This document shows, in pieces, positions 2,518 through 46,888 of a DNA stretch of 64,000 nt. Under the pieces are notes generated by a model, which had not been told where the DNA came from, searched no databases, and saw nothing but the letters and a program-made list of their open reading frames with translations. The translations under genes were made by a program, and so were the position numbers. Within the stretch, counting starts at the first letter, position 1, and every line of letters starts with the position of its first letter. Source of the DNA: an uncultured Candidatus Saccharibacteria bacterium (GTDB lineage: Bacteria; Patescibacteriota; UBA1384; JAMDBS01; CAYSHH01); contig CAYSHH010000003.1 in the NCBI GenBank assembly GCA_964430945.1, positions 4,183 to 68,182 on the forward strand, read 5' to 3'.

Positions 2518-3423
2518 ATGGAAATAAATCAAAACCTTCGTGAGTCAAGGGAAAAAAATAATGCCATGGTTGTAATCATTGTTATATTAGTTGTTGTCAT
2601 ATGTATTGCAGGTTATTTTGCCTATAAATATTATACTCAGAGAAACAATGACCAGACCAGTTCATCTATTCCTACAAGCTTAGAGACGCCAACAAAATTA
2701 GATACCGGAAATGTTATTAATTTATTGAGATATCCTCAAGCCGAAACACTTACCAATGGTAAAAAAGTTTCAGATACTCAGGTCAATGATTTTACAATGC
2801 AAACCCATGATAGTGTTGCAGTGGTATACAATTACTATATGGGTCTGTTCGAGGAGAATCATTGGTCGCTAGGGTCCTACAATATTGGAGCTGATGAAAA
2901 AACAGCTTATGTTTCCATCAAAGAAGTCAATTTTCAAGCTGAAATTGCCATTGAGTCAATGTTACCAGAAAATATTACAAGTATAGTTATAGATATAAAA
3001 ACTGGCAATTTTACAGCTAGTGATAATTTCGATTACAAAACTGCTACGCCTACAGCTTCATCAACAGCTTTATTATCTAGCCCAGAAGCTAAAAAAAATG
3101 ATAATACTTCAGAAGAAAAAGTATCGATTACTAGTGATTATGTGATTTCTGATTCTAACACCCGAGTCATCGAGACAACAGAACTTGAATCATTATCGCC
3201 ATGGGAATTAAAAGTTGCCAGAAATGAAATATATGCCAGACATGGTCGTGAATTTGTTCACCAAGATTTACAATGTTATTTTGATAACAAGAGTTGGTAT
3301 TCAAAAAATAATAATTTCTCAGATGGCGATCTTACATCTACAGAAATAAAAAACATTTCAATTATCTTAGATTATGAAAAGAGTATTGATAGTCCTGTCA
3401 TGAATAAAGACTTGGGCTGTTAA
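2518..3423 (+). CDS. Membrane-anchored YARHG-domain protein
   Basis: N-terminal TM helix (MVVIIVILVVVICIAGYFAY). The C-terminus carries the YARHG signature (ARNEIYARHGREF). RBS aagagagga lies upstream. Confidence 0.7.
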   Translation: MEINQNLRESREKNNAMVVIIVILVVVICIAGYFAYKYYTQRNNDQTSSSIPTSLETPTKLDTGNVINLLRYPQAETLTNGKKVSDTQVNDFTMQTHDSVAVVYNYYMGLFEENHWSLGSYNIGADEKTAYVSIKEVNFQAEIAIESMLPENITSIVIDIKTGNFTASDNFDYKTATPTASSTALLSSPEAKKNDNTSEEKVSITSDYVISDSNTRVIETTELESLSPWELKVARNEIYARHGREFVHQDLQCYFDNKSWYSKNNNFSDGDLTSTEIKNISIILDYEKSIDSPVMNKDLGC

Positions 3424-3526: not shown

Positions 3527-4480
3527 ATGCGAAAAATCACATATCCACTCATGGGCCCGTATACCGAAGTGTTTGAATACCTGGTTCGACAATTAGGGGC
3601 CAAATCAATAACTCCTCCCAAAATTACTCAAAAAACTATAAAACTTGGAGTAAGGCATAGTTCAGACATGGTGTGCTTCCCATTTAAAGTGACTTTGGGA
3701 AATATTATCCAAGGACTTGAGATGGGCGCTAATACTGTGCTCGCAGTAGGCACAACACCAGATCAGGAAGCAGCCAAATGCCGTTTTACATATTATTATC
3801 ATATTCAAGAACAAATATTAAAACGTATAGGTTATAAATTTGACATGCTCTACATAAGAGGTGGTCTAAAAGGTATAAATCAAACATTTCGAGATATCAA
3901 AAAAATAAACTCTACATTTGGATATTTGAAGACCCTGAGGCTTGTAAAAAACACTTACAGTAAAGTCAAACAGATAGAAGCACGCGAATATACATTCAAA
4001 CCAAAAAATATTAATATCGGGATCGTCGGCGAAGTCTACACTCTTTGGGAACCAAGTGTAAATTACAATATCATCAATAAACTCAGAAATTTAAATGTAG
4101 GAGTAGATCTGAGTTTTAAACTCACTGATTTTCTCGACGTTCAGCTTATGATGAATAAGGAAAATAAACAATATTACAATGAGGTAAAAAAATATTTTCC
4201 AAAGCGTATCGGTGGTCATGGATACGAATCGATGCAAAACACGATCCGATATGCGCATGAAGGGTTTGATGGAGTTATTCATCTAATGCCACTTAGCTGT
4301 ATGCCCGAAACCACCGTGGAAATGTCTATGAATATGATCAGTGAAGATTACAGAATACCAGTCTATCGTTTTCCGATAGATGAGAATTTTTTTGAGGCAG
4401 GTTTTGATACTCGGCTAGAAACATTTATCAAGCTTTTAAAAAGGAATAAGCAAAAAAAGACGGTATATGAAAAAAAATAA
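3527..4480 (+). CDS. Acyl-CoA dehydratase activase-associated protein (DUF2229-like)
   Basis: 317 aa, with an end that overlaps the HgdC-like ATPase gene start. The resemblance is to the uncharacterised domain fused to BadF/HgdC ATPases in 'CoA-substrate-specific enzyme activase' proteins. The domain call is from memory and is not certain. Confidence 0.45.
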   Translation: MRKITYPLMGPYTEVFEYLVRQLGAKSITPPKITQKTIKLGVRHSSDMVCFPFKVTLGNIIQGLEMGANTVLAVGTTPDQEAAKCRFTYYYHIQEQILKRIGYKFDMLYIRGGLKGINQTFRDIKKINSTFGYLKTLRLVKNTYSKVKQIEAREYTFKPKNINIGIVGEVYTLWEPSVNYNIINKLRNLNVGVDLSFKLTDFLDVQLMMNKENKQYYNEVKKYFPKRIGGHGYESMQNTIRYAHEGFDGVIHLMPLSCMPETTVEMSMNMISEDYRIPVYRFPIDENFFEAGFDTRLETFIKLLKRNKQKKTVYEKK

Positions 4481-5441
4481 TTCTAACAAAAGATATTATA
4501 TTGGTATCGACTGCGGGAGTGTATCGATGAAGGCAGTTGTCATTGATAACAAAAATACTATCGTAAAATCATATTACACAAAAAATAATGGGTTGACGGA
4601 AACGATAAAAAAGGTGATTTGCAATATTAAGGTTAATAAATATATTTCTGGTGTCGGAGTAACTGGAAGCGGTAGAGAATTTTTATCAATGCTTATCGGT
4701 GGTGATATTATAGAAAGTGAAATTATCGCTCATTATATTGCTACGACTACACTTTATCCGACCGTTAGTACAATATTTGATATTGGTGGGGAGGACAGTA
4801 AGCTCATGATGATCCGAGATGGTCAGTTGACGTCATTCGCGATGAACAGGGACTGTGGTGGTGGTACCGGGGCCATGATTGAGAGTATCGCCTACCGAAT
4901 GGGCATACCGCTAGAAAAAATTGGAGATACGGCCATGAAGAGTAAAACAGATGTCCAAATTCCGAGTAAATGCGGAATATTTGCTCAAAGTGCGGTCGTG
5001 AGTAAAATCAATAAAGGTGTTTCCAATGAAGACATACTCATGGGAGTTTGCCGTGGTTTAGTGGGAAATTTCTTTACAATGCTTGCAAAGGGTAAAAAAA
5101 TACAACCACCGTATGTTTTTCAAGGTGCAACAGCAAAAAATATCGCTTTGGTTAAATGTTTCGAAGATGAACTTGGCGAAAAAATTATTATTCCTACGAA
5201 CCCAGAACTTATGGGAGCTTTAGGAGTAGCAATGCTCACTAAGGAAGATTATTCTGGTGTTAGTAAATTCAAGGGATTTAATATTAAAAACAAACATTTT
5301 AAAACAGAAACCTATTATGGAGATAAATGTTCTAATTCTTGCGAAATCACAAAAATATTTGAGCACGAGAAGTTGATTGGTTATATTGGCAATAGATGTC
5401 GCCATTGTATAAAAAGGGGAGGCGATAATTTTGACAAATAA
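4467..5441 (+). CDS. HgdC/BcrAD-family ATPase ([4Fe-4S] 2-hydroxyacyl-CoA dehydratase / benzoyl-CoA reductase type activase)
   Basis: It aligns with A. fermentans HgdC in its Gly-rich ATP-binding loops. Both cluster-ligand cysteines are conserved in context: NRDCGGGTG matches NDKCAAGTG, and PSKCGIFAQS matches SSTCTVFAES. The extra C-terminal Cys-rich tail reads CSNSC...CRHC. Confidence 0.8.
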   Translation: MKKNNSNKRYYIGIDCGSVSMKAVVIDNKNTIVKSYYTKNNGLTETIKKVICNIKVNKYISGVGVTGSGREFLSMLIGGDIIESEIIAHYIATTTLYPTVSTIFDIGGEDSKLMMIRDGQLTSFAMNRDCGGGTGAMIESIAYRMGIPLEKIGDTAMKSKTDVQIPSKCGIFAQSAVVSKINKGVSNEDILMGVCRGLVGNFFTMLAKGKKIQPPYVFQGATAKNIALVKCFEDELGEKIIIPTNPELMGALGVAMLTKEDYSGVSKFKGFNIKNKHFKTETYYGDKCSNSCEITKIFEHEKLIGYIGNRCRHCIKRGGDNFDK

Positions 5442-6120
5442 AAGCTCAACAAAACTACACGATAGATATGAACTTTTCTGGTCAAGACTCATAAAAAAAG
5501 GTTTTTTATTTTCTAAAGATCCTTGGCATTATTCATCAAAAATCCCCTATCGATCAGTAGGGGATTTCTCAAAATATATAAGCAATAAAATAAGCGGTAA
5601 AAAACTTTTGGATGTTGGAGTTGGTAACGGTAAGCATGCAATTTATTTTACTAAAAAAAATTTTTCTGTATGGGGGATTGATATTTCCGAGTCTGCAATA
5701 AAATTTGCTAAAAATTATTGTGATATTATGCACGCTCAGGTTAATCTTAGGGTTGGAAATGTCATGAGACTTCCCTATCCACACGAATTTTTTGATGTAG
5801 TTCTAGATTCTGGTTGTTTACATCACTTAAAGGTTAGCGAATGGAAATGTTATATAAACAATATAAAAAAAGTACTCAAACGTGGTGGTTATTTATTCGT
5901 ACTAGCTTTTAGTGATAAAACAAAAATCGTTAGGAAGCTTGGCAAGCGTCAGGGTAAAAAAAGAAACTGGTCTATAAGAAATGAACATTATTACCATTAT
6001 TTCTCTAAAAAAGAAATTTTAAAAATGTTTGGCGATGATTTTCAGTTGGTAAAATGTTATGATATTAGAAGAAGCGACTCCCCTATACATTTTAGAATCT
6101 CATATCTATTGAAAAAATGA
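5431..6120 (+). CDS. Class I SAM-dependent methyltransferase
   Basis: Motif I reads LLDVGVGNGKHAIYF; VVLDSGCLHHL and RGGYLFVLAF are also present. The gene overlaps the activase gene by 11 nt. Confidence 0.7.
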   Translation: MTNKSSTKLHDRYELFWSRLIKKGFLFSKDPWHYSSKIPYRSVGDFSKYISNKISGKKLLDVGVGNGKHAIYFTKKNFSVWGIDISESAIKFAKNYCDIMHAQVNLRVGNVMRLPYPHEFFDVVLDSGCLHHLKVSEWKCYINNIKKVLKRGGYLFVLAFSDKTKIVRKLGKRQGKKRNWSIRNEHYYHYFSKKEILKMFGDDFQLVKCYDIRRSDSPIHFRISYLLKK

Positions 6121-6935
6121 ATCAAATCAGAATATATATAAATTCACATAGCAAATTATTTACGTTAATATCTTTAGGGATAATTTTTTGTGCCGTGTTC
6201 ATAGTATTTCTTTTCTATAATAATTATTTCAACAATAAGTCAGATAAATTTCTGGTAGATGCAGATACTCTTGAGAATAATACTGACTTTCCTACTCTAC
6301 CTACTCCAAAAGATACAGCAAATGACTCAGCGTCAAACGAGATTAAGAGCCAAGTAGCCATTAATGATCAGACTGATCAGTCAATCATTGCTCAAGAAAG
6401 CGATTCATCTAGCGATAATGATACTTCTGACAATGTTGATATTGACCAAGACAATAGTAGTAATAATAGTAATGATAATACAGATACTTTATCTGATAGC
6501 ACAAGTCAAAGTAGCGGAATTGAAATTAGAGGCAATGATACATGTAATACTGAAACTACAGCAGCATTGAATCTACTCTCGAGTAGTGCAGTAAGTTATT
6601 TTAGTAATGTTCAGGTCAATATTGGTGTAATAGAATGTGTTGATAGTGGATCGGGCATGTATGTTTGGGAAAATCCTCCTAGATTTGCTGCTGGTGCAGA
6701 TACCAGAAATGCCGGAACGATGTGGTATGCAGGTTCTATCGCGCATGATTCTTGCCATTCACGACAATATAAAGATGGTCGAGATTATTCTGGTCGTGAT
6801 GCCGAAGCCGAATGTCTCAATTTTCAGTATGGTACGCTTGAGGCGATGGGAGCCGATCAGTCAACACTTGACTATGTAAAAAACATTATCGATTCTGAAT
6901 ATTGGGAAATACCAGTCGATGAAAGATGGTGGTAA
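6117..6935 (+). CDS. Membrane-anchored secreted protein with a D/S/N-rich low-complexity linker and a Cys-containing C-terminal domain
   Basis: N-terminal TM (LFTLISLGIIFCAVFIVFLFY), a long acidic Ser/Asn/Asp-rich stretch and a C-terminal globular region with several Cys. Confidence 0.5.
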   Translation: MNQIRIYINSHSKLFTLISLGIIFCAVFIVFLFYNNYFNNKSDKFLVDADTLENNTDFPTLPTPKDTANDSASNEIKSQVAINDQTDQSIIAQESDSSSDNDTSDNVDIDQDNSSNNSNDNTDTLSDSTSQSSGIEIRGNDTCNTETTAALNLLSSSAVSYFSNVQVNIGVIECVDSGSGMYVWENPPRFAAGADTRNAGTMWYAGSIAHDSCHSRQYKDGRDYSGRDAEAECLNFQYGTLEAMGADQSTLDYVKNIIDSEYWEIPVDERWW

Positions 6936-6980
6936 TATATAAACAAAGAAATAATATAAATTAAATCCTTAGGAGGGATT

Positions 6981-7364
6981 ATGCAAATTTTAGGAATGAC
7001 CATGTGGGTATTTATCTTAATGGTGATTGTTTCTATCTTGGTTTCTGGTCTTACAATGTGGCTTGGCGCTGGATGGGCCGGTGTCAAAAAAGTTACTTAT
7101 GGTAAGGGTTTGTGGGTAGCAATTGTTGTAGGTATTTTTACTTGGTTGGTGTCAGCAGTTTTTGCTGGTGCAACTGGCGGATGGATGGCAATAATCGGAT
7201 TTATTGTCGGAGTTTTGATCTCACTTTGGATCATAAAAGCTATGTTCAAAATTGAATTTGGTCAAGCGTTCTTGGTCTGGATTATGAATATAGTTGCACA
7301 GGTCTTCGTATACTTTATCATTTCGATTATTCTAGTCGGAACAACGTTTGCTTTTTGGGTATAA
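6981..7364 (+). CDS. Small polytopic membrane protein (about 4 TM)
   Basis: Hydrophobic throughout; strong RBS aggaggg upstream. Confidence 0.55.
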   Translation: MQILGMTMWVFILMVIVSILVSGLTMWLGAGWAGVKKVTYGKGLWVAIVVGIFTWLVSAVFAGATGGWMAIIGFIVGVLISLWIIKAMFKIEFGQAFLVWIMNIVAQVFVYFIISIILVGTTFAFWV

Positions 7365-7495
7365 ACTATTTATTAAAACCAGTATAAGCAATAATTCTAA
7401 TGGTTTATTATCTACCACAAGTCGTGGTAGATATTTTTTGACTATTTATCGAATATTTAAGATAATAAATACAATATCATATAATTAAACTTACT

Positions 7496-8734
7496 ATGAT
7501 CTATAAATTTTCAAATTATGAAAAAGTATTTATAAATATGACTAAAAACTATGTGTCAGTTTACCCTGAGTATAGTTTTCAGTATTATTTTGATGATCAT
7601 AAGGAAAAACTAATCGGTAGCGGAAAAAAGATAATCATTGTGAAAATTAAAAATGCTAAAAAAGTATTTAAGAGAATATTTGAAGAGGGTTCCATTGGAT
7701 TGGGTGAGGTGTATTGTGACGGTCTAGTAAGGATCGCTGACAAAGATTATCGATACTTTCTTCTTATGATTGTTCGCACAGTATACGACAAAAGCCTTCA
7801 ATCAAAACTTTCTTTAAAAGATAAACTTCAGGTAATAAAAGCAAAAGCTGTCAGTAAATTTTTTACTAACAAAGATCAATATAAAGATATAAATAGTCAT
7901 TATAGTTTAAATGACTGGTTTTCTTCGGATGAAGATTCAAATCAATTTTATTTTTATTGGCTAGCATCTCCTTATATTCAATACACTTGCGCAAAATGGG
8001 ATCATGATACGAAAGAGCTGGAGGAGGCACAGATTAACAAATTTAATTTCTATGCCAAGCGTTTAGGTATTTCTAAAAAATCAAAAGGTAAAACTGTGCT
8101 TGATCTCGGATGTGGTTGGGGTGGACTAATGTTTTATCTGGCTGAGAATTTTCAGGTAAATTGCACTGGCATTACACTTTCTACGGCTCAGGCTTCATAC
8201 ATTAAAAAAGAAGCAAAAAAAAGAAAACTTGAACATCTAGTTAGAGTAAGAAATATCAACGTTCACAATATGGACGGTATTTATGATTACATCGTCTCGG
8301 TAGGGCTTTTGGAGCATATCGATGATTATGATGATTTATATAAAAAAACTTCTCTGCATCTCAAGCCAGGTGGACGAGCACTTTTTCACGCAATGTTTCA
8401 CGAAGACGCACACGATGATCCAGATCCATTTTTGTCAAAATATATTTTTCCAGGAGGATGTGTAACAAATATTAATAAAAGTATTAAAATTTTTAAAAAA
8501 TACTTTAAAAAAGTTGATAGGAATGATTTACCGGATTTGTCTTATCCCAAAACTCTTGTTTGTTGGTTCGATAAATTTTGCAAAAATGAGCCAAAGATCA
8601 GGAAACTTTTACGTGACAAAGGAAAATGCAAGGATATCGACTTTGCTATCCGCATGTTCAAACACTACCTAATGTTATCTTATTGTGGACTAACAGTTAA
8701 CGGACACGTATGCAACATACTGGCCGAAAAATAA
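7496..8734 (+). CDS. Cyclopropane-fatty-acyl-phospholipid synthase family methyltransferase (CMAS/CFA-synthase-like)
   Basis: VLDLGCGWGGLMFYLAENF (the DxGCGWG motif of CFA synthases), GITLSTAQASY, a conserved acidic region and the N-terminal CFA-synthase-type region IFEEGSIGLGEVYCDG. Confidence 0.8.
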   Translation: MIYKFSNYEKVFINMTKNYVSVYPEYSFQYYFDDHKEKLIGSGKKIIIVKIKNAKKVFKRIFEEGSIGLGEVYCDGLVRIADKDYRYFLLMIVRTVYDKSLQSKLSLKDKLQVIKAKAVSKFFTNKDQYKDINSHYSLNDWFSSDEDSNQFYFYWLASPYIQYTCAKWDHDTKELEEAQINKFNFYAKRLGISKKSKGKTVLDLGCGWGGLMFYLAENFQVNCTGITLSTAQASYIKKEAKKRKLEHLVRVRNINVHNMDGIYDYIVSVGLLEHIDDYDDLYKKTSLHLKPGGRALFHAMFHEDAHDDPDPFLSKYIFPGGCVTNINKSIKIFKKYFKKVDRNDLPDLSYPKTLVCWFDKFCKNEPKIRKLLRDKGKCKDIDFAIRMFKHYLMLSYCGLTVNGHVCNILAEK

Positions 8735-10095
8735 TTGAAGTTAACTCGGAAGATATTTATAAACAAAAAAGAAATTCTCTTCGTGATGCTTTTTTATTTA
8801 ACATAAAACACAAAACTAAAGTTCGTTTTAGCAAAAAAACCTCCAATTTATTTCGTGATCAGACTGGCATAAAAGCAAAAAAGATTGACGTTCATAATTT
8901 CAATCAAGTCTTATTGATTAATATGCAGAATAAAACTGCAACAGTGGAGGCAATGATAAGATTCGAAGATCTTGTAAAAGTAACTTTGAAATATAATTTG
9001 TTGCCTCCAGTTGCTCCCCAGCTAAAAACTATAACACTTGGTGGTGCAGTATCTGGAGTTGGTATAGAAGCAAGTTCGTTTCAATACGGTCTTGTACATG
9101 AAACAGTTCTGGAGATGGAAGTTATGCTCACTAACGGAAAAATTATCACTTGTACTTCAACGAATCAATATAAAGATCTATTTTTTTCTCTTCCAAATTC
9201 ATATGGGACACTTGGATATATTTTAAAAATTAAAATAGCGCTTGTTGATGCTAAAAAATACGTTAAAATCTCTCATCATAAGTATGCTGACGCAAATCAT
9301 TATTTTGCAGAGCTTGATAAAATCTGCATTGATAAAAAATTTGACTTTGTGGATGGGGTTGTATTTGACGAACGCAATATGTATATTTCAACTGCTCAAT
9401 TTGTTGACAGTGTGCCAAGAGTGAGTGATTACAAATATATGCAGATTTACTACAAATCAATTCTTAAAAAGAAAGAAGATTATCTTACGACGAGCGATTA
9501 TATTTGGCGCTGGGATACTGATTGGTTTTGGTGCTCCAAAATATTTGGTATGCAAAATACATTCTTGCGACTAGTACTTGGTAAATTTATGTTGGGCTCT
9601 AAGTCGTATTGGTCAATCGCACGATTTGAAGAAAAACATAAGATTAGGTCTAGAACGGAAAAAATTATTACTGGAAAAGTTAAACCTACCGAATCAGTTG
9701 TTCAGGACGTGTGTATCCCGATTGAAAATTGCGAGAAATTTTTAGAATTTTTTAATAAACAAATTGACATCAAGCCAATTTGGATTTGCCCTTTTCGAGC
9801 GTATGATAAAAATGAAACTTTTCCATTATTCAAATTAGATACTAAAAAATTGTATGTTGACTTTGGGTTTTGGGATGTAGTACCAACCGATAAATCAAAG
9901 GGATATTATAATAAACTAATAGAAAAAAAAGTTGAGGAATTAGGTGGCAAGAAATCACTTTACTCTGAATCATATTACGAACGTGATGAATTCTGGAAAA
10001 TATTTAATGGTAAAAATTATTTCAAACTAAAACACAAGTACGATCCAGAAAATTATTTTCCAGACCTATATACTCGTTGTGTTAAAAATAAATAA
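8710..10095 (+). CDS. FAD-binding PCMH-type (FAD_binding_4) oxidoreductase, DHCR24/BfaA(TmsA)-like
   Basis: ITLGGAVSGVGIEASSFQYGLVHETVLEMEVMLTNGKIITCT matches the FAD-binding-domain-4 core (GG..G.......G...d.v..levVl.dG.iv). It overlaps the upstream methyltransferase gene by 25 nt. Confidence 0.7.
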   Translation: MQHTGRKIIEVNSEDIYKQKRNSLRDAFLFNIKHKTKVRFSKKTSNLFRDQTGIKAKKIDVHNFNQVLLINMQNKTATVEAMIRFEDLVKVTLKYNLLPPVAPQLKTITLGGAVSGVGIEASSFQYGLVHETVLEMEVMLTNGKIITCTSTNQYKDLFFSLPNSYGTLGYILKIKIALVDAKKYVKISHHKYADANHYFAELDKICIDKKFDFVDGVVFDERNMYISTAQFVDSVPRVSDYKYMQIYYKSILKKKEDYLTTSDYIWRWDTDWFWCSKIFGMQNTFLRLVLGKFMLGSKSYWSIARFEEKHKIRSRTEKIITGKVKPTESVVQDVCIPIENCEKFLEFFNKQIDIKPIWICPFRAYDKNETFPLFKLDTKKLYVDFGFWDVVPTDKSKGYYNKLIEKKVEELGGKKSLYSESYYERDEFWKIFNGKNYFKLKHKYDPENYFPDLYTRCVKNK

Positions 10096-10148: not shown

Positions 10149-10535
10149 ATGAAAGAAAAACTCTTGGCTCCATGTGGGATAAATTGTGCAATTTGCAAAG
10201 GATATTTGCGCGAAAAAAATACCTGTCCCGGGTGCAGATTTTTAGATCCCAAAACCAATACATTTAAATCTTGTACAAAATGCATTATTAAAAATTGTCC
10301 AGAACTCAAAAAAACTAAATCTAAGTTTTGCTATGAGTGTGACAAATATCCATGTAAACGAATGAAAGATTTAAATAAAAGATATGTTACTAGGTATGAC
10401 TATAATACTTTTAAAACTTTAGAATCAATTAAAAAAGATGGCACTAAAAAGACATTCGAAAAAATCATGAAAAAATATTCTTGTCCTAAGGGCACAATTT
10501 GCGTGCATGATAAAGAATGTTATTCATTGAATTAA
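10149..10535 (+). CDS. Cys-rich DUF3795-like protein
   Basis: CGINCAICKGY...CPGC...CTKC...C...CYEC...C pattern in 128 aa. Confidence 0.55.
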   Translation: MKEKLLAPCGINCAICKGYLREKNTCPGCRFLDPKTNTFKSCTKCIIKNCPELKKTKSKFCYECDKYPCKRMKDLNKRYVTRYDYNTFKTLESIKKDGTKKTFEKIMKKYSCPKGTICVHDKECYSLN

Positions 10536-33020: not shown

Positions 33021-33095
33021 TGGCAGCCTGTAGGGGAATCGAACCCCTGTTTTCAGCTTGAAAAGCTGACGTCCTAACCATTAGACGAACAGGCC
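33021..33095 (-). tRNA. tRNA-Glu (anticodon TTC)
   Basis: The reverse complement folds as a cloverleaf with anticodon loop ttTTCaa, a TpsiC arm ggttcgattcc and a 3' gCCA. Confidence 0.85.
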
Positions 33096-33138
33096 TTATT
33101 ATGATTTTTTAAAAACAATAGTGATTATTATATCAATA

Positions 33139-33705
33139 TTATTGTGGTATCGCAATGTCTTTTATTAAGTTATCGCTTTGATTTAAATTGTATTCGTAAA
33201 GATCAGAATATTTTCGTTGTTCATCGGCATTGGTAGCATTAGTATATTGGATCAATGCGTCTTTTGCTTTTTTTAAAAGCTCAAGAGATTTGACCATTTG
33301 ACTATTTATATCGTTAAATTTTTTATCAATTTTTAAATTATTAAATTTATTCATTCCTTCGTCAATCATCGATTCTAATTCATTGGATGCATTACTGGCC
33401 TCAGTGTCAGTAAAAATAGTTTTATATTTTATTTTATCCAAATAATCGTTAAATTTATCATTAATTGGTTTTCTGATTTTCAATACTTCATCTATATATA
33501 CCTCACCAGAAGTTATCATATCGTTACTTACATCGGCTACACTATTTAAATTATTAGAATCAGATATTATAATCGGTTCAGATGAACTTAAATCAGAAAA
33601 ATTTTTCTTTTGCAAATTCTTTTCCTGGGTATTTTCTTGTGTATAGTAATATATTGCGCCACCGACAAGTACTAATAATATTAGGGGTAAAATAACTTTT
33701 TTCAT
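33139..33705 (-). CDS. Membrane-anchored hypothetical protein
   Basis: N-terminal TM ILPLILLVLVGGAIYYY; the rest is polar. Confidence 0.45.
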   Translation of the reverse strand: MKKVILPLILLVLVGGAIYYYTQENTQEKNLQKKNFSDLSSSEPIIISDSNNLNSVADVSNDMITSGEVYIDEVLKIRKPINDKFNDYLDKIKYKTIFTDTEASNASNELESMIDEGMNKFNNLKIDKKFNDINSQMVKSLELLKKAKDALIQYTNATNADEQRKYSDLYEYNLNQSDNLIKDIAIPQ

Positions 33706-33737
33706 TTTTATTATATTAAGGTTAATTTATTGTAAGA

Positions 33738-33812
33738 TGGAGGGCGCTATGGGGATCGAACCCATGACAAACTGCTTAAGAGGCAGTTGCTCTACCACTG
33801 AGCTAAGCACCC
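33738..33812 (-). tRNA. tRNA-Lys (anticodon CTT)
   Basis: gggtgcttagctcagtggtagagc..., anticodon loop ctCTTaa, ggttcgatccc, CCA. Confidence 0.85.
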
Positions 33813-33919
33813 GCAATTTATTCTTGGGCAGATCTATTACAATGTCACAAATTAGAATTATAAAATACGTAAACAAATATTAATATTTGTAATTTATTCG
33901 AGTATTATACTATGGCATA

Positions 33920-33996
33920 TGGTGCTCTCAAGAGGAGTCGAACCTCTAACCTTCTGGTCCGAAGCCAGACGCTCTATCCAATTGAGCTATGAGAGC
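33920..33996 (-). tRNA. tRNA-Arg (anticodon TCG)
   Basis: gctctcatagctcaattggatagagc (Arg-type D arm), anticodon loop ctTCGga, ggttcgactcc, CCA. Confidence 0.75.
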
Positions 33997-34046
33997 TCAC
34001 ATTATCAAAATACTATCATGCAAATAATTTAGCGGGTTATAAAGGA

Positions 34047-34122
34047 TGGGGTGAACGATGGGATTTGAACCCACAACCACCAGAGCCACAATCTGGTGCT
34101 CTACCGTTGAGCTACGTCCACC
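34047..34122 (-). tRNA. tRNA-His (anticodon GTG) with G-1
   Basis: Extra 5' G pairing with C73, anticodon loop ttGTGgc, ggttcaaatcc, CCA. Confidence 0.85.
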
Positions 34123-34134
34123 ATATCTATAAGA

Positions 34135-34211
34135 TGGTGTCCGCGAGTGGATTCGAACCACTGACCTACAGCTTAGAAGGCTGTCGCTCTATCCAACTGA
34201 GCTACGCGGAC
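34135..34211 (-). tRNA. tRNA-Arg (anticodon TCT)
   Basis: gtccgcgtagctcagttggatagagc, loop ctTCTaa, ggttcgaatcc, CCA. Confidence 0.85.
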
Positions 34212-34273
34212 ATACTTCAAAAATATCGTTTCACGATATTTTCAAATTAAAAAATAATATTTTAAATTATTTT

Positions 34274-34349
34274 TGGAGCGGGTGAGCGGAATCGAACCGC
34301 CATAGCCAGCTTGGAAGGCTGGTACATTAACCGTTATGCTACACCCGCA
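34274..34349 (-). tRNA. tRNA-Gly (anticodon TCC)
   Basis: gcgggtgtagcataacggtta..., loop ctTCCaa, ggttcgattcc, CCA. Confidence 0.85.
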
Positions 34350-34560
34350 TATGATAATTTTTTAAAATCAAATCAAGTGTAAGACTAATTATATATTTTA
34401 AATCAAAATACTCTAATTTAAAACCAATTTATGGTCGGGCACAATCAACGCTCTTACAACTTTTTTCCTTACACAAACTCAGGATATTAATTTAAACTAT
34501 TCACTTAAACTAACCAAATAATATCAAAAAACTTGCGAGAAATAAAGAGTTAGAGATAGA

Positions 34561-34587
34561 AAAATAAAAAGAGACGAAAAGTCTCTT
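34561..34587 (-). terminator. Rho-independent terminator for 34617..35285
   Basis: aagagac-gaaaa-gtctctt with the T-tract on the minus strand. Confidence 0.7.
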
Positions 34588-34616
34588 CTTGAACTAAATA
34601 TGGTGACTGGTGATTT

Positions 34617-35285
34617 TTAATAAAGTTTGAATATTTCTTTTACAGTCTTCCGGGTAGCTTCAAATAATTGCCTATCTATTCTAATTTTTTCTTTTAATGT
34701 TTTTACAAGTAAAACTTTATTATTTTCCGACAGAAATGCTCTTTTATTCTCTTCGTATCTGGAGCGCCAATCCAACGCATCTTTTTTTAGTTTTACAGGT
34801 ACGGGCACTAAACGATCAAAAGAATGGCAGTTATTCATACTGAAGTATAGATTAAATTCCCAAACATAATACTTATCTGGATGTGGTACGGTATCATATT
34901 GTAGTACATCATGTAAATAGTGAAGCTCCTGTAACAATGTTACGCCTGCTGATCTAAAATATATAACTGCACGATCTTTGTCTAAGTCTTTTTTAGGGTA
35001 ACGTTCTCGCCATTTCCAATTTGTAAACACGCTGTCCCAGAAAAATCTCGAATCTAATGATAATTTCATCTTTACACCATGTTCTTTATAAAAATGCAAT
35101 AAACTTTGCTTGAATTGATTCAAATTACCCTTTTCTTCATAAAAATGTTTAAGGGCATGTTTGGCAAAATCGCTTTGATCCAAGATGATTGCTTCTTTTA
35201 TTAATTCTGCAGGGCAATGTTGAATATCTGGATTATTTGTAAGTAAATCAAAAAATGCATCTTCGGGTGTAAGTATTTTTGCCAT
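34617..35285 (-). CDS. Hypothetical protein (222 aa)
   Basis: Long ORF with RBS and terminator; no recognised motif. Confidence 0.5.
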   Translation of the reverse strand: MAKILTPEDAFFDLLTNNPDIQHCPAELIKEAIILDQSDFAKHALKHFYEEKGNLNQFKQSLLHFYKEHGVKMKLSLDSRFFWDSVFTNWKWRERYPKKDLDKDRAVIYFRSAGVTLLQELHYLHDVLQYDTVPHPDKYYVWEFNLYFSMNNCHSFDRLVPVPVKLKKDALDWRSRYEENKRAFLSENNKVLLVKTLKEKIRIDRQLFEATRKTVKEIFKLY

Positions 35286-35561
35286 CGTAATTCACTCCTT
35301 ATTTGCTATATTCGTAAAATTTTAAAATTCACGAAGTAACAAATAAAGAGCAATTATTAAGCAACAAAACTAGACCATAGTATTAAAAGAATATTATACT
35401 GTTAATGTAAAAATTAACTATTTAAAACAAGTTCCAACTTTCAAATACCTGTTGAATAAAAATAACTACTGAGTGGCTACTTTTAGCCAAAAATCACGTT
35501 TTTATTTTCTCTATCTGTAAACTTGACATATGTATCAAGTTTACGGTCGTAATAGATTAAC

Positions 35562-35639
35562 TGGTCGGGGTGCCGAGACTCGAACTCGGGACCTCTTGCT
35601 CCCAAAGCAAGCGCTCTAGCCAACTGAGCCACACCCCGC
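35562..35639 (-). tRNA. tRNA-Pro (anticodon TGG)
   Basis: cggggtgtggctcagttggctagagc, loop ttTGGga, agttcgagtct, CCA. Confidence 0.85.
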
Positions 35640-38389: not shown

Positions 38390-38466
38390 TGGTACTCTCG
38401 AGGGGACTCGAACCTCTAATCTTTCCCTTAGGACGGGACTGCTTTATCCAATTAAGCTACGAGAGC
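38390..38466 (-). tRNA. tRNA-Arg (anticodon CCT, probable)
   Basis: Arg-type D arm gctctcgtagcttaattggataaagc, anticodon region gtCCTaa, ggttcgagtcc, CCA. The anticodon stem has one mismatch, so the isotype is less certain. Confidence 0.65.
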
Positions 38467-44088: not shown

Positions 44089-44165
44089 TGGTGGACGACA
44101 TAGGACTTGAACCTATAACCCCTTGCATGTCATGCAAGTGCTCTAACCAATTGAGCTAGCCGTCC
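44089..44165 (-). tRNA. tRNA-Val (anticodon GAC)
   Basis: ggacggctagctcaattggttagagc, loop atGACat, ggttcaagtcc, CCA. Confidence 0.85.
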
Positions 44166-46535: not shown

Positions 46536-46888
46536 TGGGGCCATATTGGTTTCGACAGAACATTAATAACTATTGTGTCATGCCGAGTGGGATTGAGCAC
46601 TTGTAATAAAATCAATCAAACTTTAAGTGCAAAAAACTTTGTAAACAAAGTAAAGACTGCTTTTGCAGGATTTAACTTTGCACCAGCTTTAGCCTAATAA
46701 CGCTTTAGCCGTCCTTGTACACAGCGGCCCGACCGTGTACTATGGGCGCCAAATTTCGGGCTGGATGCTCTAAAGATAGATTTGGTATAGAGTATCAAGA
46801 GATAACGAAATCATGTTTCTAAGCATGTATAAAAGCACGATAGTTCATTGTGTTTTGGACAGGAGTTCGACTCTCCTTGGCTCCACCA
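46536..46888 (+). ncRNA. ssrA: tmRNA (SsrA)
   Basis: 5' ggggccatattggtttcgacag... tRNA-like start. 3' end ggacaggagttcgactctccttggctccacca carries the T-arm and CCA. The internal tag frame gca aaa aac ... gct tta gcc taa taa encodes AKNFVNKVKTAFAGFNFAPALA plus a double stop. Confidence 0.9.

What the first reader, a model, noticed from the sequence alone, without database searches (positions are those of the whole stretch)
3527..6120. Orphan HgdC/BcrAD-type [4Fe-4S] ATPase activase operon with no dehydratase or reductase client nearby
4467..5441 aligns convincingly with 2-hydroxyglutaryl-CoA dehydratase component A, including both cluster-ligand cysteines, and has an extra C-terminal CxxxC...CxxC tail. 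It is translationally coupled upstream to a 317-aa DUF2229-like partner and downstream to a SAM methyltransferase. No HgdAB/BcrBC-like catalytic subunits are in the window. Such ATP-driven electron 'archerases' normally serve radical enzymes; in a minimal genome the client is unknown.
Basis: partly seen in the sequence, partly recalled or inferred. Interest (0 to 1): 0.6.

Follow-up and report, generated by a model that had tools for sequence, protein, structure and literature searches.

The report
Minimal two-gene ATP-driven iron-sulfur reductase
The "orphan" electron-pumping ATPase is not orphan: the gene just upstream encodes its own stripped-down catalytic partner, and together they form a self-contained two-gene enzyme, distantly related to bacterial plasmalogen and ether-lipid synthases, that is widespread in ultra-small bacteria and archaea and whose substrate is still unknown.

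Summary
The three ORFs, their overlaps, both HgdC-type cluster cysteines and the Cys-rich tail are real. The interpretation "no client nearby" is wrong. The 317-aa DUF2229 protein (3527-4480) has the fold of the catalytic subunits of the benzoyl-CoA reductase / 2-hydroxyacyl-CoA dehydratase / double-cubane family: all 17 significant PDB matches belong to it. It also keeps three invariant cysteines. In 32 of 32 testable loci from CPR bacteria, DPANN and other anaerobes, this gene is immediately followed by an activase, with no other recurrent neighbour. Natural fusions of the two proteins exist. The activase tail is a family-wide four-cysteine site. It also occurs after the second activase domain of the 1,475-aa Listeria protein that I take to be the fused plasmalogen synthase. 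The window's pair corresponds to the Act2+tail and Red2 (PlsR-like) modules of that system, reduced to one gene each. The methyltransferase is kept only in an 83 %-identical relative and is not part of the core. The most likely mechanism is ATP-driven electron injection into a three-Cys [4Fe-4S] homodimer. The substrate is unproven; a membrane-lipid ester is the leading guess (about 0.3). I rate this a new variant of a known kind, of moderate interest.

The parts
3527..4480 (+). 'Red' subunit: a 317-aa DUF2229-type catalytic (client) protein with the BCR/HAD/DCCP catalytic-subunit fold. It is closest to the Red2/PlsR-like module.
   Evidence: Pfam DUF2229 scores 37.8 bits. The AF2 model has pLDDT 92.3 and pTM 0.90. 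Foldseek against the PDB gives 17 top hits, all DCCP, BzdNO, HadBC or MbdON chains, with E 7e-8 to 6e-4. BLASTP to Monoglobus Red2 gives 28 % identity, E 2e-45; to Listeria Red2, E 1e-7.
3674..3676 (+). Codon of Cys50 (motif SSDMvCFPFK), a proposed [4Fe-4S] ligand.
   Evidence: Invariant in 68 homologs down to 36 % identity. Aligns with Cys in Listeria Red1 and Red2, Monoglobus Red1 and Red2, and the P. bifermentans BBD protein. In homolog P0122 an intein is inserted exactly before it.
3779..3781 (+). Codon of Cys85 (motif CRF), a proposed [4Fe-4S] ligand.
   Evidence: Invariant in 68 homologs. Aligns with 'GGGCRAT' of Listeria Red2 and 'GpCRag' of Monoglobus Red2.
4298..4300 (+). Codon of Cys258 (motif DGVIHLmPLSCMPE), a proposed [4Fe-4S] ligand.
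   Evidence: Invariant. Aligns to the C-terminal Cys motif of HadC 3o3m_B and DCCP 7yyl_C. Inteins are inserted exactly before it in P0126 and P0133.
4467..5441 (+). Activase ('archerase'): a 324-aa HgdC/HadI/BcrAD-type ASKHA ATPase with a C-terminal extension of about 60 aa.
   Evidence: TIGR00241 scores 169 bits against a cutoff of 125. PDB phmmer hits are MbdQ, HadI and HgdC. AF2 pLDDT is 91.4. Foldseek hits HadI, MbdQ, HgdC and DCCP-R with TM 0.85-0.90 and rmsd about 2 A over about 259 residues. The best match within Listeria Pls is Act2+tail (31 % identity, 149 bits), against 87 bits for Act1.
4854..4856 (+). Codon of Cys130, a ligand of the inter-subunit [4Fe-4S] (equivalent to HgdC Cys127).
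   Evidence: Invariant in 65 cassette activases. Aligned to Cys127 of 1HUX.
4971..4973 (+). Codon of Cys169, the second ligand of the inter-subunit [4Fe-4S] (equivalent to HgdC Cys166).
   Evidence: Invariant in 65 cassette activases. Aligned to Cys166 of 1HUX.
5259..5408 (+). Activase tail: a small three-stranded beta domain carrying a four-Cys metal site (C288, C292, C311, C314).
   Evidence: C288, C292 and C311 are invariant in 65 activases. The fourth Cys is mutually exclusive: at -3 of C288 in 48 sequences, at position 314 in 16, at -4 in 1. AF2 predicts strands at 278-284, 293-299 and 302-307 with pLDDT about 88-93. The same motif lies in Listeria Pls at C604/C607/C611/C630 and in the Monoglobus activase.
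4467..4480 (+). 14-nt overlap between the Red stop and the activase start (translational coupling).
   Evidence: In 32 single-Red loci the gap ranges from -32 to +70 nt, and 27 of them overlap.
5431..6120 (+). Class I SAM methyltransferase: a lineage-specific downstream gene, not part of the conserved core.
   Evidence: Methyltransf_25/11 hits. No NCBIfam model reaches its cutoff. Present after the cassette only in the 83 %-identical relative L098. Absent after the cassette in L013 and the other loci.
6117..7364 (+). Two uncharacterised ORFs in the same apparent unit: 6117-6935 (272 aa, N-terminal membrane anchor, no Pfam hit) and 6981-7364 (127-aa membrane protein).
   Evidence: The first overlaps the methyltransferase stop by 4 nt. 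Neither is found next to the cassette elsewhere.
7409..7433 (+). Terminator-like hairpin (10-bp stem followed by a T-run), the likely end of the local transcription unit. Promoter-like hexamers follow at 7438-7485.
   Evidence: This is a consensus scan only; the counts are not significantly above those of shuffled sequence.

Best explanation
Genes 3527-4480 and 4467-5441 encode a complete, self-contained two-component enzyme of the BCR/HAD/DCCP ('archerase') superfamily.

The 324-aa protein is the ATP-driven electron injector.
- It is inferred to be a homodimer holding one [4Fe-4S] between the Cys130/Cys169 pairs.
- It would be reduced by ferredoxin or flavodoxin.
- It has an extra four-Cys metal domain at its C-terminus.

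The 317-aa DUF2229 protein is its client.
- It is a trimmed catalytic subunit that most likely forms a homodimer.
- Each monomer would carry a [4Fe-4S] cluster held by Cys50, Cys85 and Cys258, leaving one iron free to bind a substrate oxygen.

Proposed cycle:
- ATP hydrolysis drives a low-potential electron from the activase cluster into the client cluster.
- The client cluster then reduces a hard-to-reduce carbonyl or ester group via a ketyl-type radical.

In evolutionary terms the pair is the Act2+tail and Red2 (PlsR-like) modules of the plasmalogen synthase / glycerol ester reductase lineage, reduced to one copy each.

Basis of each step:
- Shown here: fold, invariant cysteines, strict gene linkage, natural fusion, homology chain.
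- Inferred from the family: clusters, homodimers, ATP-coupled electron transfer.
- Guess, about 0.3: the substrate is the sn-1 ester of a membrane glycerolipid, giving ether or plasmalogen lipids in a lipid-scavenging CPR cell.
For: Red subunit:
- Three invariant Cys in 68 homologs.
- AF2 pLDDT 92.
- All 17 significant PDB fold matches are catalytic subunits of DCCP, BzdNO, HadBC or MbdON.
- The C258 motif aligns to the C-terminal Cys motif of HadC and DCCP.
- Inteins in homologs sit exactly at C50 and C258.

Activase:
- TIGR00241 is above its cutoff.
- C130 and C169 correspond to HgdC Cys127 and Cys166.
- TM 0.85-0.90 to HadI, MbdQ, HgdC and DCCP-R.

Linkage:
- 32 of 32 single-Red loci with enough downstream sequence have the activase within 150 nt, and 27 overlap.
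- No other neighbour family recurs in more than 3 of 32 loci.
- A natural Red-activase fusion, P0121, exists.
- No second Red or activase is present in the window.

Lineage:
- The four-Cys tail is shared with Listeria Pls Act2 and the Monoglobus activase.
- win_Red to Monoglobus Red2 gives E 2e-45, Monoglobus Red2 to Listeria Red2 gives E 1e-10, and win_Red to Listeria Red2 gives E 1e-7. Red1 types pair with each other.
- hhalign to the Red domain of a P. bifermentans BBD protein gives probability 98 % with all three Cys aligned.
- DUF2229 is the 'reduction' domain of Ger/PlsA, which work alone when expressed in E. coli (PMC13159169; PMC12838417).

Lipid hint:
- A CFA-synthase-like gene plus a FAD oxidoreductase gene lie downstream here, and in the relative L098. 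In L013 only the CFA-synthase-like gene was detected.
- Ger hits and CFA synthases have been reported in DPANN (PMC11868695).
Against: - There is no biochemical evidence of any kind.
- Sequence similarity of Red to canonical HGD-D subunits is not significant (hhalign probability below 8 %; PDB profile E 0.045-0.33).
- Fold TM-scores are only about 0.5.
- Cys-Cys geometry could not be measured because no model coordinates were available.
- The homodimer is inferred only from the single gene and the 1:1 fusion. A Red1 gene elsewhere in the genome cannot be excluded.
- Against a lipid substrate: Red is only 22-25 % identical to Listeria Red2 and scores about 22 bits per Red domain with the family profile.
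- Against a lipid substrate: characterised Pls/Ger have two Red and two Act modules.
- Against a lipid substrate: the cassette is common in DPANN, Bathyarchaeota and Asgard archaea, whose own lipids have no ester to reduce.
- The metal in the tail (Zn or Fe-S) is unknown.
Confidence: 0.72

Rival explanations
1. The activase is an orphan that serves a canonical HgdAB/BcrBC/DCCP-type client encoded elsewhere, and the DUF2229 protein is only an accessory or scaffold.
For: Pfam labels the domain 'uncharacterised'. No protein with a strong HGD-D hit is in the window. The rest of the genome could not be inspected.
Against: - The DUF2229 protein has the catalytic-subunit fold and three invariant Cys.
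- The pair is linked in 32 of 32 loci across bacterial and archaeal phyla, with no third conserved gene.
- The two proteins are fused in P0121.
- In PlsA/Ger the DUF2229 region is part of the reductase itself (PMC13159169).
Confidence: 0.06
2. A classical acyl-CoA enzyme: a 2-hydroxyacyl-CoA dehydratase or benzoyl-CoA-reductase-like enzyme acting on a CoA thioester in a fermentation or aromatic pathway.
For: Databases name homologs '2-hydroxyglutaryl-CoA dehydratase' or 'acyl-CoA dehydratase activase'. The fold is shared with HadBC and BzdNO.
Against: - No recurrent neighbour family of any kind was found around 32 cassettes. A canonical Azoarcus locus, by contrast, has CoA-transferase and acyl-CoA dehydrogenase genes next to its subunits. 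The cassette neighbours were clustered by similarity but not individually annotated.
- There is one Red gene, not an alpha/beta pair.
- HGD-D scores are absent or weak for Red, against 187-408 bits for canonical subunits.
- hhalign to canonical subunits is not significant.
- The hosts are CPR and DPANN organisms with minimal metabolism.
Confidence: 0.08
3. A DCCP/YjiLM-like reductase for a non-lipid substrate, either a small molecule or another ubiquitous metabolite. In this lineage it may be coupled to methylation by the downstream TPMT/TehB-like methyltransferase, as a detoxification or repair function.
For: - It has a two-gene, probably homodimeric layout like DCCP/DCCP-R and yjiM-yjiL.
- The best single PDB fold hit is DCCP.
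- The cassette occurs in archaea that lack ester lipids.
- In the close relative L098, the methyltransferase, DUF362, rhodanese, MsrB and MsrA genes follow the cassette.
Against: - Red has only three cysteines in total. From my recollection of the DCCP literature, not checked here, the double-cubane cluster needs six cysteine ligands.
- YjiM scores 408 bits on HGD-D, while Red has no significant HGD-D hit.
- The four-Cys-tail activase and the DUF2229-type Red are signatures shared with Pls, not with DCCP-R or DCCP.
- The methyltransferase linkage is conserved only at 83 % identity.
Confidence: 0.25

Closest known systems
Anaerobic plasmalogen synthase PlsA/PlsR (C. perfringens CPE1194/1195; single fused gene in Listeria, Enterococcus, Lactococcus)
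   Same: - An HgdC-type activase domain is followed by the same four-Cys tail (Listeria C604/C607/C611/C630).
- The Red domains are DUF2229-type with the same three Cys motifs.
- It acts without accessory genes.
- The window activase is 31 % identical to Listeria Act2+tail, and the window Red is closest to Red2.
   Different: - Pls has two activase domains (Act1 without the tail, Act2 with it) and two different Red modules (Red1 and Red2). The window has one of each.
- Red identity is only 22-25 %, and the family profile scores about 22 bits per Listeria Red domain.
- Function was not tested here.
- The Listeria protein is taken to be Pls on the basis of the literature statement that Listeria has active pls orthologs (PMC9702350) and its BBD architecture. 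I did not compare it directly with CPE1194/1195.
Glycerol ester reductase Ger (T. maritima Tmari_0479; D. alkenivorans SHJ90043)
   Same: - It is built from the same Pfam components (BcrAD_BadFG, DUF2229, weak HGD-D).
- Published 'Ger homologs' were reported in Woesearchaeota, Pacearchaeota and Asgard, the same groups that carry this family (PMC13159169; PMC11868695).
   Different: - Ger is one polypeptide with the architecture BBDHDDH. Here there are two small genes, in the order D(H) then B.
- The Ger sequence could not be obtained, so no direct comparison was made.
Uncharacterised three-gene operons Red1-Red2-activase (for example Monoglobus pectinilyticus; MAGs of Bacillota, Planctomycetia and Asgard)
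   Same: - These are the nearest relatives outside the family. Red is 28 % identical to Monoglobus Red2 (E 2e-45; 232 bits with the profile).
- The activase is 38.5 % identical, of the same length, and carries the same tail.
   Different: They carry an additional canonical DUF2229 subunit (Red1, 328-339 aa), and their Red2 is 360-400 aa long with an insertion. The window's type has lost Red1.
Double-cubane cluster protein DCCP with DCCP-R (E. coli YjiM/YjiL)
   Same: - It has a two-gene layout, with a homodimeric reductase and a dedicated HgdC-like ATPase.
- DCCP is the top structural hit for Red (7yyl_A, E 7e-8), and DCCP-R matches the activase.
   Different: - DCCP is a strong HGD-D family member (YjiM 408 bits). 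As I recall, it binds its [8Fe-9S] cluster with six Cys.
- Red has three Cys in total and no significant HGD-D hit.
- DCCP-R lacks the four-Cys tail.
2-Hydroxyacyl-CoA dehydratases (HgdAB-HgdC, HadBC-HadI) and class I benzoyl-CoA reductases (BcrABCD, BzdNOPQ, MbdONPQ)
   Same: - The activase core and its two bridging-cluster Cys are shared.
- The catalytic-subunit fold is shared, as is the C-terminal 'DGVI...C.PE' motif.
   Different: - These have heterodimeric alpha/beta catalytic subunits of 375-450 aa with strong HGD-D scores.
- They sit among CoA-transferase and acyl-CoA dehydrogenase genes.
- Their activators have no tail.
- Sequence similarity to Red is not significant.

Membership tests
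HgdC/HadI/BcrAD-type activase (archerase ATPase) | ASKHA-fold ATPase that matches the curated family models | tested here: met
   TIGR00241 scores 169.4 bits against a cutoff of 125.4; PF01869 scores 128 bits. Foldseek TM is 0.85-0.90 with rmsd about 2 A to 4ehu, 9gai_D and 1hux.
HgdC/HadI/BcrAD-type activase (archerase ATPase) | Two cysteines per monomer that bridge one [4Fe-4S] in the dimer (HgdC Cys127 and Cys166) | tested here: met
   C130 and C169 align to Cys127 and Cys166 of 1HUX and are invariant in 65 homologs. Actual cluster binding cannot be tested here. The ligand identity in HgdC is from my recollection of the 1HUX paper.
BCR/HAD/DCCP catalytic (client) subunit superfamily | The characteristic catalytic-subunit fold | tested here: met
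   The AF2 model (pLDDT 92.3) gives 17 significant PDB hits, all catalytic chains of DCCP, BzdNO, HadBC or MbdON, each with probability 1.00. TM is only about 0.5.
BCR/HAD/DCCP catalytic (client) subunit superfamily | Conserved cysteines that bind the active-site Fe-S cluster | tested here: inconclusive
   Three invariant Cys are present. C258 aligns with the C-terminal Cys motif of HadC and DCCP. C50 and C85 align only within DUF2229-type proteins. The geometry was not measurable.
BCR/HAD/DCCP catalytic (client) subunit superfamily | Membership of Pfam HGD-D (PF06050) at gathering score | tested here: not met
   The window protein has no HGD-D hit at E <= 0.01. About a quarter of its homologs carry a weak precomputed PF06050 hit. 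Canonical subunits score 187-408 bits.
PlsA/PlsR - Ger lineage (DUF2229-type lipid ester reductases) | DUF2229 domain in the reductase part | tested here: met
   PF09989 scores 37.8 bits against a cutoff of 29.4, covering residues 12-193.
PlsA/PlsR - Ger lineage (DUF2229-type lipid ester reductases) | Four-Cys motif directly after the (second) activase domain | tested here: met
   Listeria has C604-x2-C607-x3-C611...C630. The window has C288-x3-C292...C311-x2-C314. The alignment runs through the tail. That this motif is a defining feature is my own observation, not a published criterion.
PlsA/PlsR - Ger lineage (DUF2229-type lipid ester reductases) | Two activase domains plus two distinct Red modules (BBD... 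architecture, conserved in all confirmed ether-lipid producers per PMC13159169) | tested here: not met
   There is one activase gene and one Red gene, and no other copy in the 64-kb window. The same holds for 32 related loci.
PlsA/PlsR - Ger lineage (DUF2229-type lipid ester reductases) | Conversion of the sn-1 acyl ester to an alk-1-enyl or alkyl ether | not testable with these tools
   This needs anaerobic heterologous expression and lipid analysis.
Double-cubane cluster proteins (DCCP/YjiM) | Six cysteine ligands for an [8Fe-9S] cluster | tested here: not met
   The Red protein contains only three cysteines in total. The six-Cys requirement is from my recollection of the DCCP literature.
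2-Hydroxyacyl-CoA dehydratases | Alpha/beta pair of HGD-D subunits in a CoA-transferase or acyl-CoA pathway context | tested here: not met
   There is a single Red gene and no recurrent neighbour family in 32 loci. Compare the Azoarcus locus.

The most novel reading that the evidence does not exclude
The Red+Act pair is the smallest natural form of the ester-to-ether lipid reductase. It would be a homodimeric, single-Red enzyme with an additional Fe-S relay cluster in the activase tail. Lipid-scavenging ultra-small symbionts, both CPR bacteria and DPANN archaea, would use it to convert host-derived ester phospholipids into ether or plasmalogen lipids. The gene pair would have been exchanged between the two domains. 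Alternatively, and equally novel, the pair acts on a completely new, non-lipid substrate class for archerase-driven radical chemistry.
Probability: 0.3. Interest if true: 0.75.

Novelty: new variant of a known kind. Interest (0 to 1): 0.5.

Why it matters
- If the pair is active on its own, it defines the minimal parts list (about 640 residues, one Red and one Act) of an ATP-driven low-potential reductase. The characterised relatives are 1,300-1,500-residue multi-domain proteins. That makes it an attractive target for structure and mechanism work, including the unexplained four-Cys tail that no solved activator has.
- If the substrate is a membrane lipid, CPR and DPANN cells would remodel stolen lipids into ethers. 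Metagenomic surveys that count 'Ger homologs' as evidence of ether-lipid or brGDGT production, including hits in archaea, would then need to separate this split single-Red type from true BBD-type Ger/PlsA.
- If the substrate is not a lipid, those surveys over-call, and a new reaction awaits discovery.
- It also corrects a recurrent annotation trap: DUF2229 proteins next to 'activases' are the clients, not accessories.

Tried and rejected
1. Original PlsA/PlsR paper: the look-up by DOI was not held.
2. Obtaining T. maritima Ger or C. perfringens PlsA/PlsR sequences was not possible with the collections. I used a Listeria 1,475-aa protein, found in a chromosome fragment filed under plasmids, as the Pls representative.
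4. Measuring Cys-Cys distances: no model coordinates were exposed.
5. hhalign of the family against the canonical HGD-D subunits (Azoarcus alpha and beta, E. coli YjiM):
   - The global mode gave meaningless alignments.
   - The local mode was not significant, probability below 8 %.
   - The tie to canonical enzymes therefore rests on fold and one motif only.
6. Conserved-neighbour search around 32 cassettes found nothing recurrent. Neighbourhoods in Pelagicoccus mobilis, Acidobacteriota and Woesearchaeota were uninformative.
7. Literature searches for a description of the split system in CPR or DPANN found only generic 'Ger homolog' mentions.
8. I considered the methyltransferase as a core member and rejected it.
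9. I considered a double-cubane cluster and rejected it on cysteine count.
10. The promoter scan is not above chance.

Full report
**Observation**

The window holds three co-directional ORFs: 3527-4480 (317 aa), 4467-5441 (324 aa) and 5431-6120 (229 aa, TTG start behind a GGGGAGG Shine-Dalgarno). They overlap by 14 and 11 nt.

The 324-aa protein passes the curated model TIGR00241 'acyl-CoA dehydratase activase' (169 bits against a cutoff of 125) and PF01869. It matches the solved activators MbdQ, HadI, HgdC and DCCP-R at E 2.5e-34 to 6e-22. Counting through the 1HUX alignment puts its C130 and C169 on HgdC Cys127 and Cys166. The C-terminal C288-x3-C292...C311-x2-C314 motif exists.

The 317-aa protein passes Pfam DUF2229 (37.8 bits against a cutoff of 29.4). 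The third ORF is a generic class I SAM methyltransferase that reaches no NCBIfam cutoff. The descriptive part of the finding is therefore correct.

**The upstream partner is the client**

I aligned 68 homologs of the 317-aa protein, down to 36 % identity. Three cysteines are invariant: C50 (SSDMvCFPFK), C85 (CRF) and C258 (DGVIHLmPLSCMPE). The window protein contains no other cysteine.

An AlphaFold2 model built on that alignment is confident (pLDDT 92.3, pTM 0.90). Foldseek against the PDB returns 17 matches with E <= 6e-4, all at probability 1.00. Every one is a catalytic chain of the benzoyl-CoA reductase / 2-hydroxyacyl-CoA dehydratase / double-cubane family: DCCP 7yyl and 6eno, BzdNO 8s02 and 8s2r, HadBC 3o3m/n/o, and MbdON 9gai and 9g87. 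The next hits drop to E > 3e-3 and are unrelated.

A profile search of PDB sequences weakly aligns the C258 motif to the C-terminal 'DGVI...FC.PE' segment of HadC and DCCP (E 0.045-0.33).

At sequence level the link to canonical HGD-D subunits is otherwise not significant (hhalign probability below 8 % against the Azoarcus alpha and beta subunits and E. coli YjiM). TM-scores are about 0.5. The tie to the canonical enzymes is therefore at fold level. No other Red-like or activase-like ORF exists anywhere in the 64 kb.

**Gene linkage**

Exact-sequence look-ups and one scan of species-representative genomes gave 80 loci. The nearest relatives are:
- Candidatus Saccharibacteria MAGs (61-66 % identity).
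- An unclassified archaeon (60 %).
- Woesearchaeota, Pacearchaeota and Nanoarchaeia.
- Aminicenantes/Acidobacteriota, Omnitrophota, Cloacimonadota, Dehalococcoidia and Bathyarchaeota.
- One named isolate, Pelagicoccus mobilis.
- At 28-30 % identity, many Asgard (Promethearchaeota) genomes.

My script found that all 32 non-redundant loci with a single 290-330-aa Red gene and at least 900 nt of downstream sequence have an activase starting within 150 nt. In 27 of them the genes overlap. Among 241 neighbouring ORFs, no family recurs in more than 3 of the 32 loci.

The exhaustive profile search found 2,481 representatives. They include:
- A natural Red-activase fusion, P0121 (625 aa).
- Tandem Red-Red fusions.
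- A class of 360-400-aa proteins.
- Intein-bearing versions.

The 360-400-aa class sits in three-gene operons, Red1-Red2-activase, in Bacillota, Planctomycetia and Asgard archaea. Monoglobus pectinilyticus is one example.

The inteins are inserted exactly before C50 (P0122) and exactly before C258 (P0126 and P0133), using those cysteines as the +1 residue. Inteins typically home to cofactor or active-site motifs (established knowledge). This independently flags the two residues as the functional core.

**The activase tail**

In 65 activases from these loci, C130, C169, C288, C292 and C311 are invariant. The fourth tail cysteine is mutually exclusive. It lies three residues before C288 in 48 sequences (CxxCxxxC...C). 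It lies at position 314 in 16 sequences, including the window (CxxxC...CxxC). In one sequence it lies four residues before C288. There are therefore always four cysteines, which argues for a real metal site.

AlphaFold2 (pLDDT 91.4) folds residues 278-307 into three beta strands with pLDDT about 88-93. Solved activators align only over the first 259 or so residues, so this domain has no structural precedent among them. Whether it binds Zn or an Fe-S cluster cannot be decided here.

**Relation to known systems**

Published work describes DUF2229 as the 'reduction' domain of the glycerol ester reductase Ger (architecture BBDHDDH) and of plasmalogen synthase. PlsA comprises Act1-Act2-Red1 and PlsR comprises Red2. 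Both enzymes convert E. coli lipids when expressed alone under anoxic conditions (PMC13159169; PMC12838417; PMC9702350).

A 1,475-aa Listeria monocytogenes protein has this BBD architecture (DUF2229 286 bits, two BcrAD domains). Against this protein:
- The window activase aligns best to its second activase domain, straight through the tail (31 % over 316 aa, E 9e-44).
- The Listeria tail reads C604-x2-C607-x3-C611...C630.
- The alignment to Act1, which has no tail, is weaker (E 5e-23).
- The window Red aligns best to the Red2 region (E 5e-8 against the full-length protein, 1e-7 against the excised Red2 segment), with C50 and C85 matched.
- It aligns only marginally to Red1.

The family profile scores 232 bits on Monoglobus Red2, 86 on Monoglobus Red1, and about 22 per Red domain of Listeria. 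A P. bifermentans BBD protein aligns at hhalign probability 98 % with all three Cys matched.

The window's pair is thus the Act2+tail and Red2 (PlsR-like) modules of this lineage, reduced to single genes. It is homologous to the characterised enzymes but distant from them.

**Mechanism**

The steps below are inferred from the family.
- The activase dimer holds a [4Fe-4S] between the C130/C169 pairs and is reduced by ferredoxin or flavodoxin.
- On ATP hydrolysis it injects an electron into the Red cluster.
- The Red cluster is held by three Cys. Its unligated iron binds a substrate oxygen and generates a ketyl-type radical.
- The single Red gene and the 1:1 fusion suggest a Red2Act2 complex, analogous to homodimeric DCCP.

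The substrate is open. A membrane-lipid ester is the leading candidate, for these reasons:
- The sub-clade signatures are shared with Pls.
- The cassette is autonomous.
- Its carriers appear to be mostly anaerobes; this is my impression from the lineages listed and was not tested.
- A CFA-synthase-like gene overlapping a FAD_binding_4 oxidoreductase gene lies 2 kb downstream here, and the pair recurs in the relative L098. In L013 only the CFA-synthase-like gene was detected.

I put this at only about 0.3. Identity to Pls is low, characterised enzymes have two Red modules, and the cassette is frequent in archaea that have no ester lipids. A non-lipid DCCP-like role is a serious rival.

Classical acyl-CoA dehydratase or reductase chemistry is unlikely. 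No recurrent neighbour of any kind accompanies the cassette, whereas the canonical Azoarcus locus has CoA-transferase and acyl-CoA dehydrogenase genes beside its subunits.

**The methyltransferase and the local unit**

The methyltransferase follows the cassette only in an 83 %-identical relative (L098). It is absent after the cassette in the 66 %-identical Saccharibacteria locus L013 and in all other loci.

In this window a 10-bp hairpin with a T-run at 7409-7433, followed by promoter-like hexamers, suggests that the unit runs Red-Act-MTase-272-aa ORF-127-aa membrane ORF. That scan is not statistically above shuffled sequence.

**Verdict**

The finding's description is right. Its headline, an orphan activase with no client, is not. 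What is there is a minimal, widely distributed two-gene member of the DUF2229/Pls/Ger branch of the archerase enzymes.

The papers I found mention such hits only generically as 'Ger homologs' in DPANN and Asgard. I found no description of the split single-Red form, the four-Cys tail with its ligand swap, or the inteins at the cluster cysteines. I rate it a new variant of a known kind, with interest about 0.5.

Noticed in passing
homologs P0122, P0126, P0133 (no window coordinates; equivalent to window codons 3674-3676 and 4298-4300): Three homologs of the Red protein carry LAGLIDADG inteins. They are inserted exactly before invariant Cys50 (P0122) or Cys258 (P0126, P0133), and use those cysteines as the +1 splice residue.
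   Followed up: partly
window 5319-5408 and 65 activases from loci L002-L092: The fourth cysteine of the activase tail swaps position in a mutually exclusive way. It is at -3 of C288 in 48 sequences, at position 314 in 16 (the window and Saccharibacteria types), and at -4 in one. The site therefore always has four Cys.
   Followed up: yes
window 7496-8734 and 8710-10095 (+): A CFA-synthase-family methyltransferase (PF02353, 167 bits) overlaps by 25 nt with a FAD_binding_4 oxidoreductase. This resembles the BfaB/BfaA pair that makes 10-methyl fatty acids from oleoyl lipids (PMC5660069, PMC7791843). It suggests lipid-tail remodelling in a CPR-like genome. The pair recurs near the cassette in L098; in L013 only the CFA-synthase-like gene was detected.
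   Followed up: partly
window 6117-6935 and 6981-7364 (+): Two ORFs with no Pfam match sit in the same apparent unit as the cassette. One is a 272-aa protein with an N-terminal membrane anchor, an Asp/Ser/Asn-rich linker and a Cys/His-containing C-terminal domain. The other is a 127-aa multi-pass membrane protein. Neither is seen next to the cassette elsewhere.
   Followed up: no
L016 (archaeon CSMAG_2753), L017-L022, compared with L013-L015: The Red protein of this CPR-like bacterium is 60 % identical to that of an unclassified archaeon and 44-46 % identical to Woesearchaeota and 'Methanosarcinales'-labelled MAGs. That is closer than to most bacteria, which suggests transfer of the cassette between CPR and DPANN.
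   Followed up: no
L001 3191-3652 (about 4 kb upstream of the Red gene, just outside the window start): A flavodoxin gene lies upstream on the overlapping Logan contig, after P-type ATPase and MgtE genes. From memory, flavodoxin is a known reductant of HgdC-type activators. No linkage was tested.
   Followed up: no
window 2518-3423 (+) and L098 2708-3619: A YARHG-domain protein with an N-terminal membrane segment lies directly upstream of the cassette, both here and in the 83 %-identical relative.
   Followed up: no
L095 3083-6931 (Paraclostridium bifermentans plasmid pHD0315_2-2): This 1,282-aa protein has BcrAD-BcrAD-DUF2229-HGD-D architecture. It lacks the four-Cys tail and has a cysteine-free C-terminal stretch of about 360 aa. 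It is a different sub-architecture of the same lineage, sitting next to a Crp/Fnr regulator.
   Followed up: partly
L098 6275-9199: In the closest relative, the cassette and methyltransferase are followed by DUF362, rhodanese, MsrB and MsrA genes. These are redox and sulfur-repair functions that are absent at this position in the window.
   Followed up: no
L099 1-14945: One cassette-bearing contig has the pair embedded among many short unannotated same-strand ORFs, a resolvase and a collagen-repeat protein. This may be a mobile or viral context.
   Followed up: no
window 33021-35638, 38390-38466, 44089-44165 (-) and 46537-46888 (+): A cluster of seven tRNA genes lies at 33021-35638, with two more tRNA genes further along. 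A tmRNA with tag peptide AKNFVNKVKTAFAGFNFAPALA confirms a bacterial origin.
   Followed up: no
window 10149-10535 (+): A Cys-rich DUF3795 protein (128 aa) lies downstream of the lipid-modifying pair and is conserved in L013. It may be a metal or Fe-S protein of unknown role.
   Followed up: no
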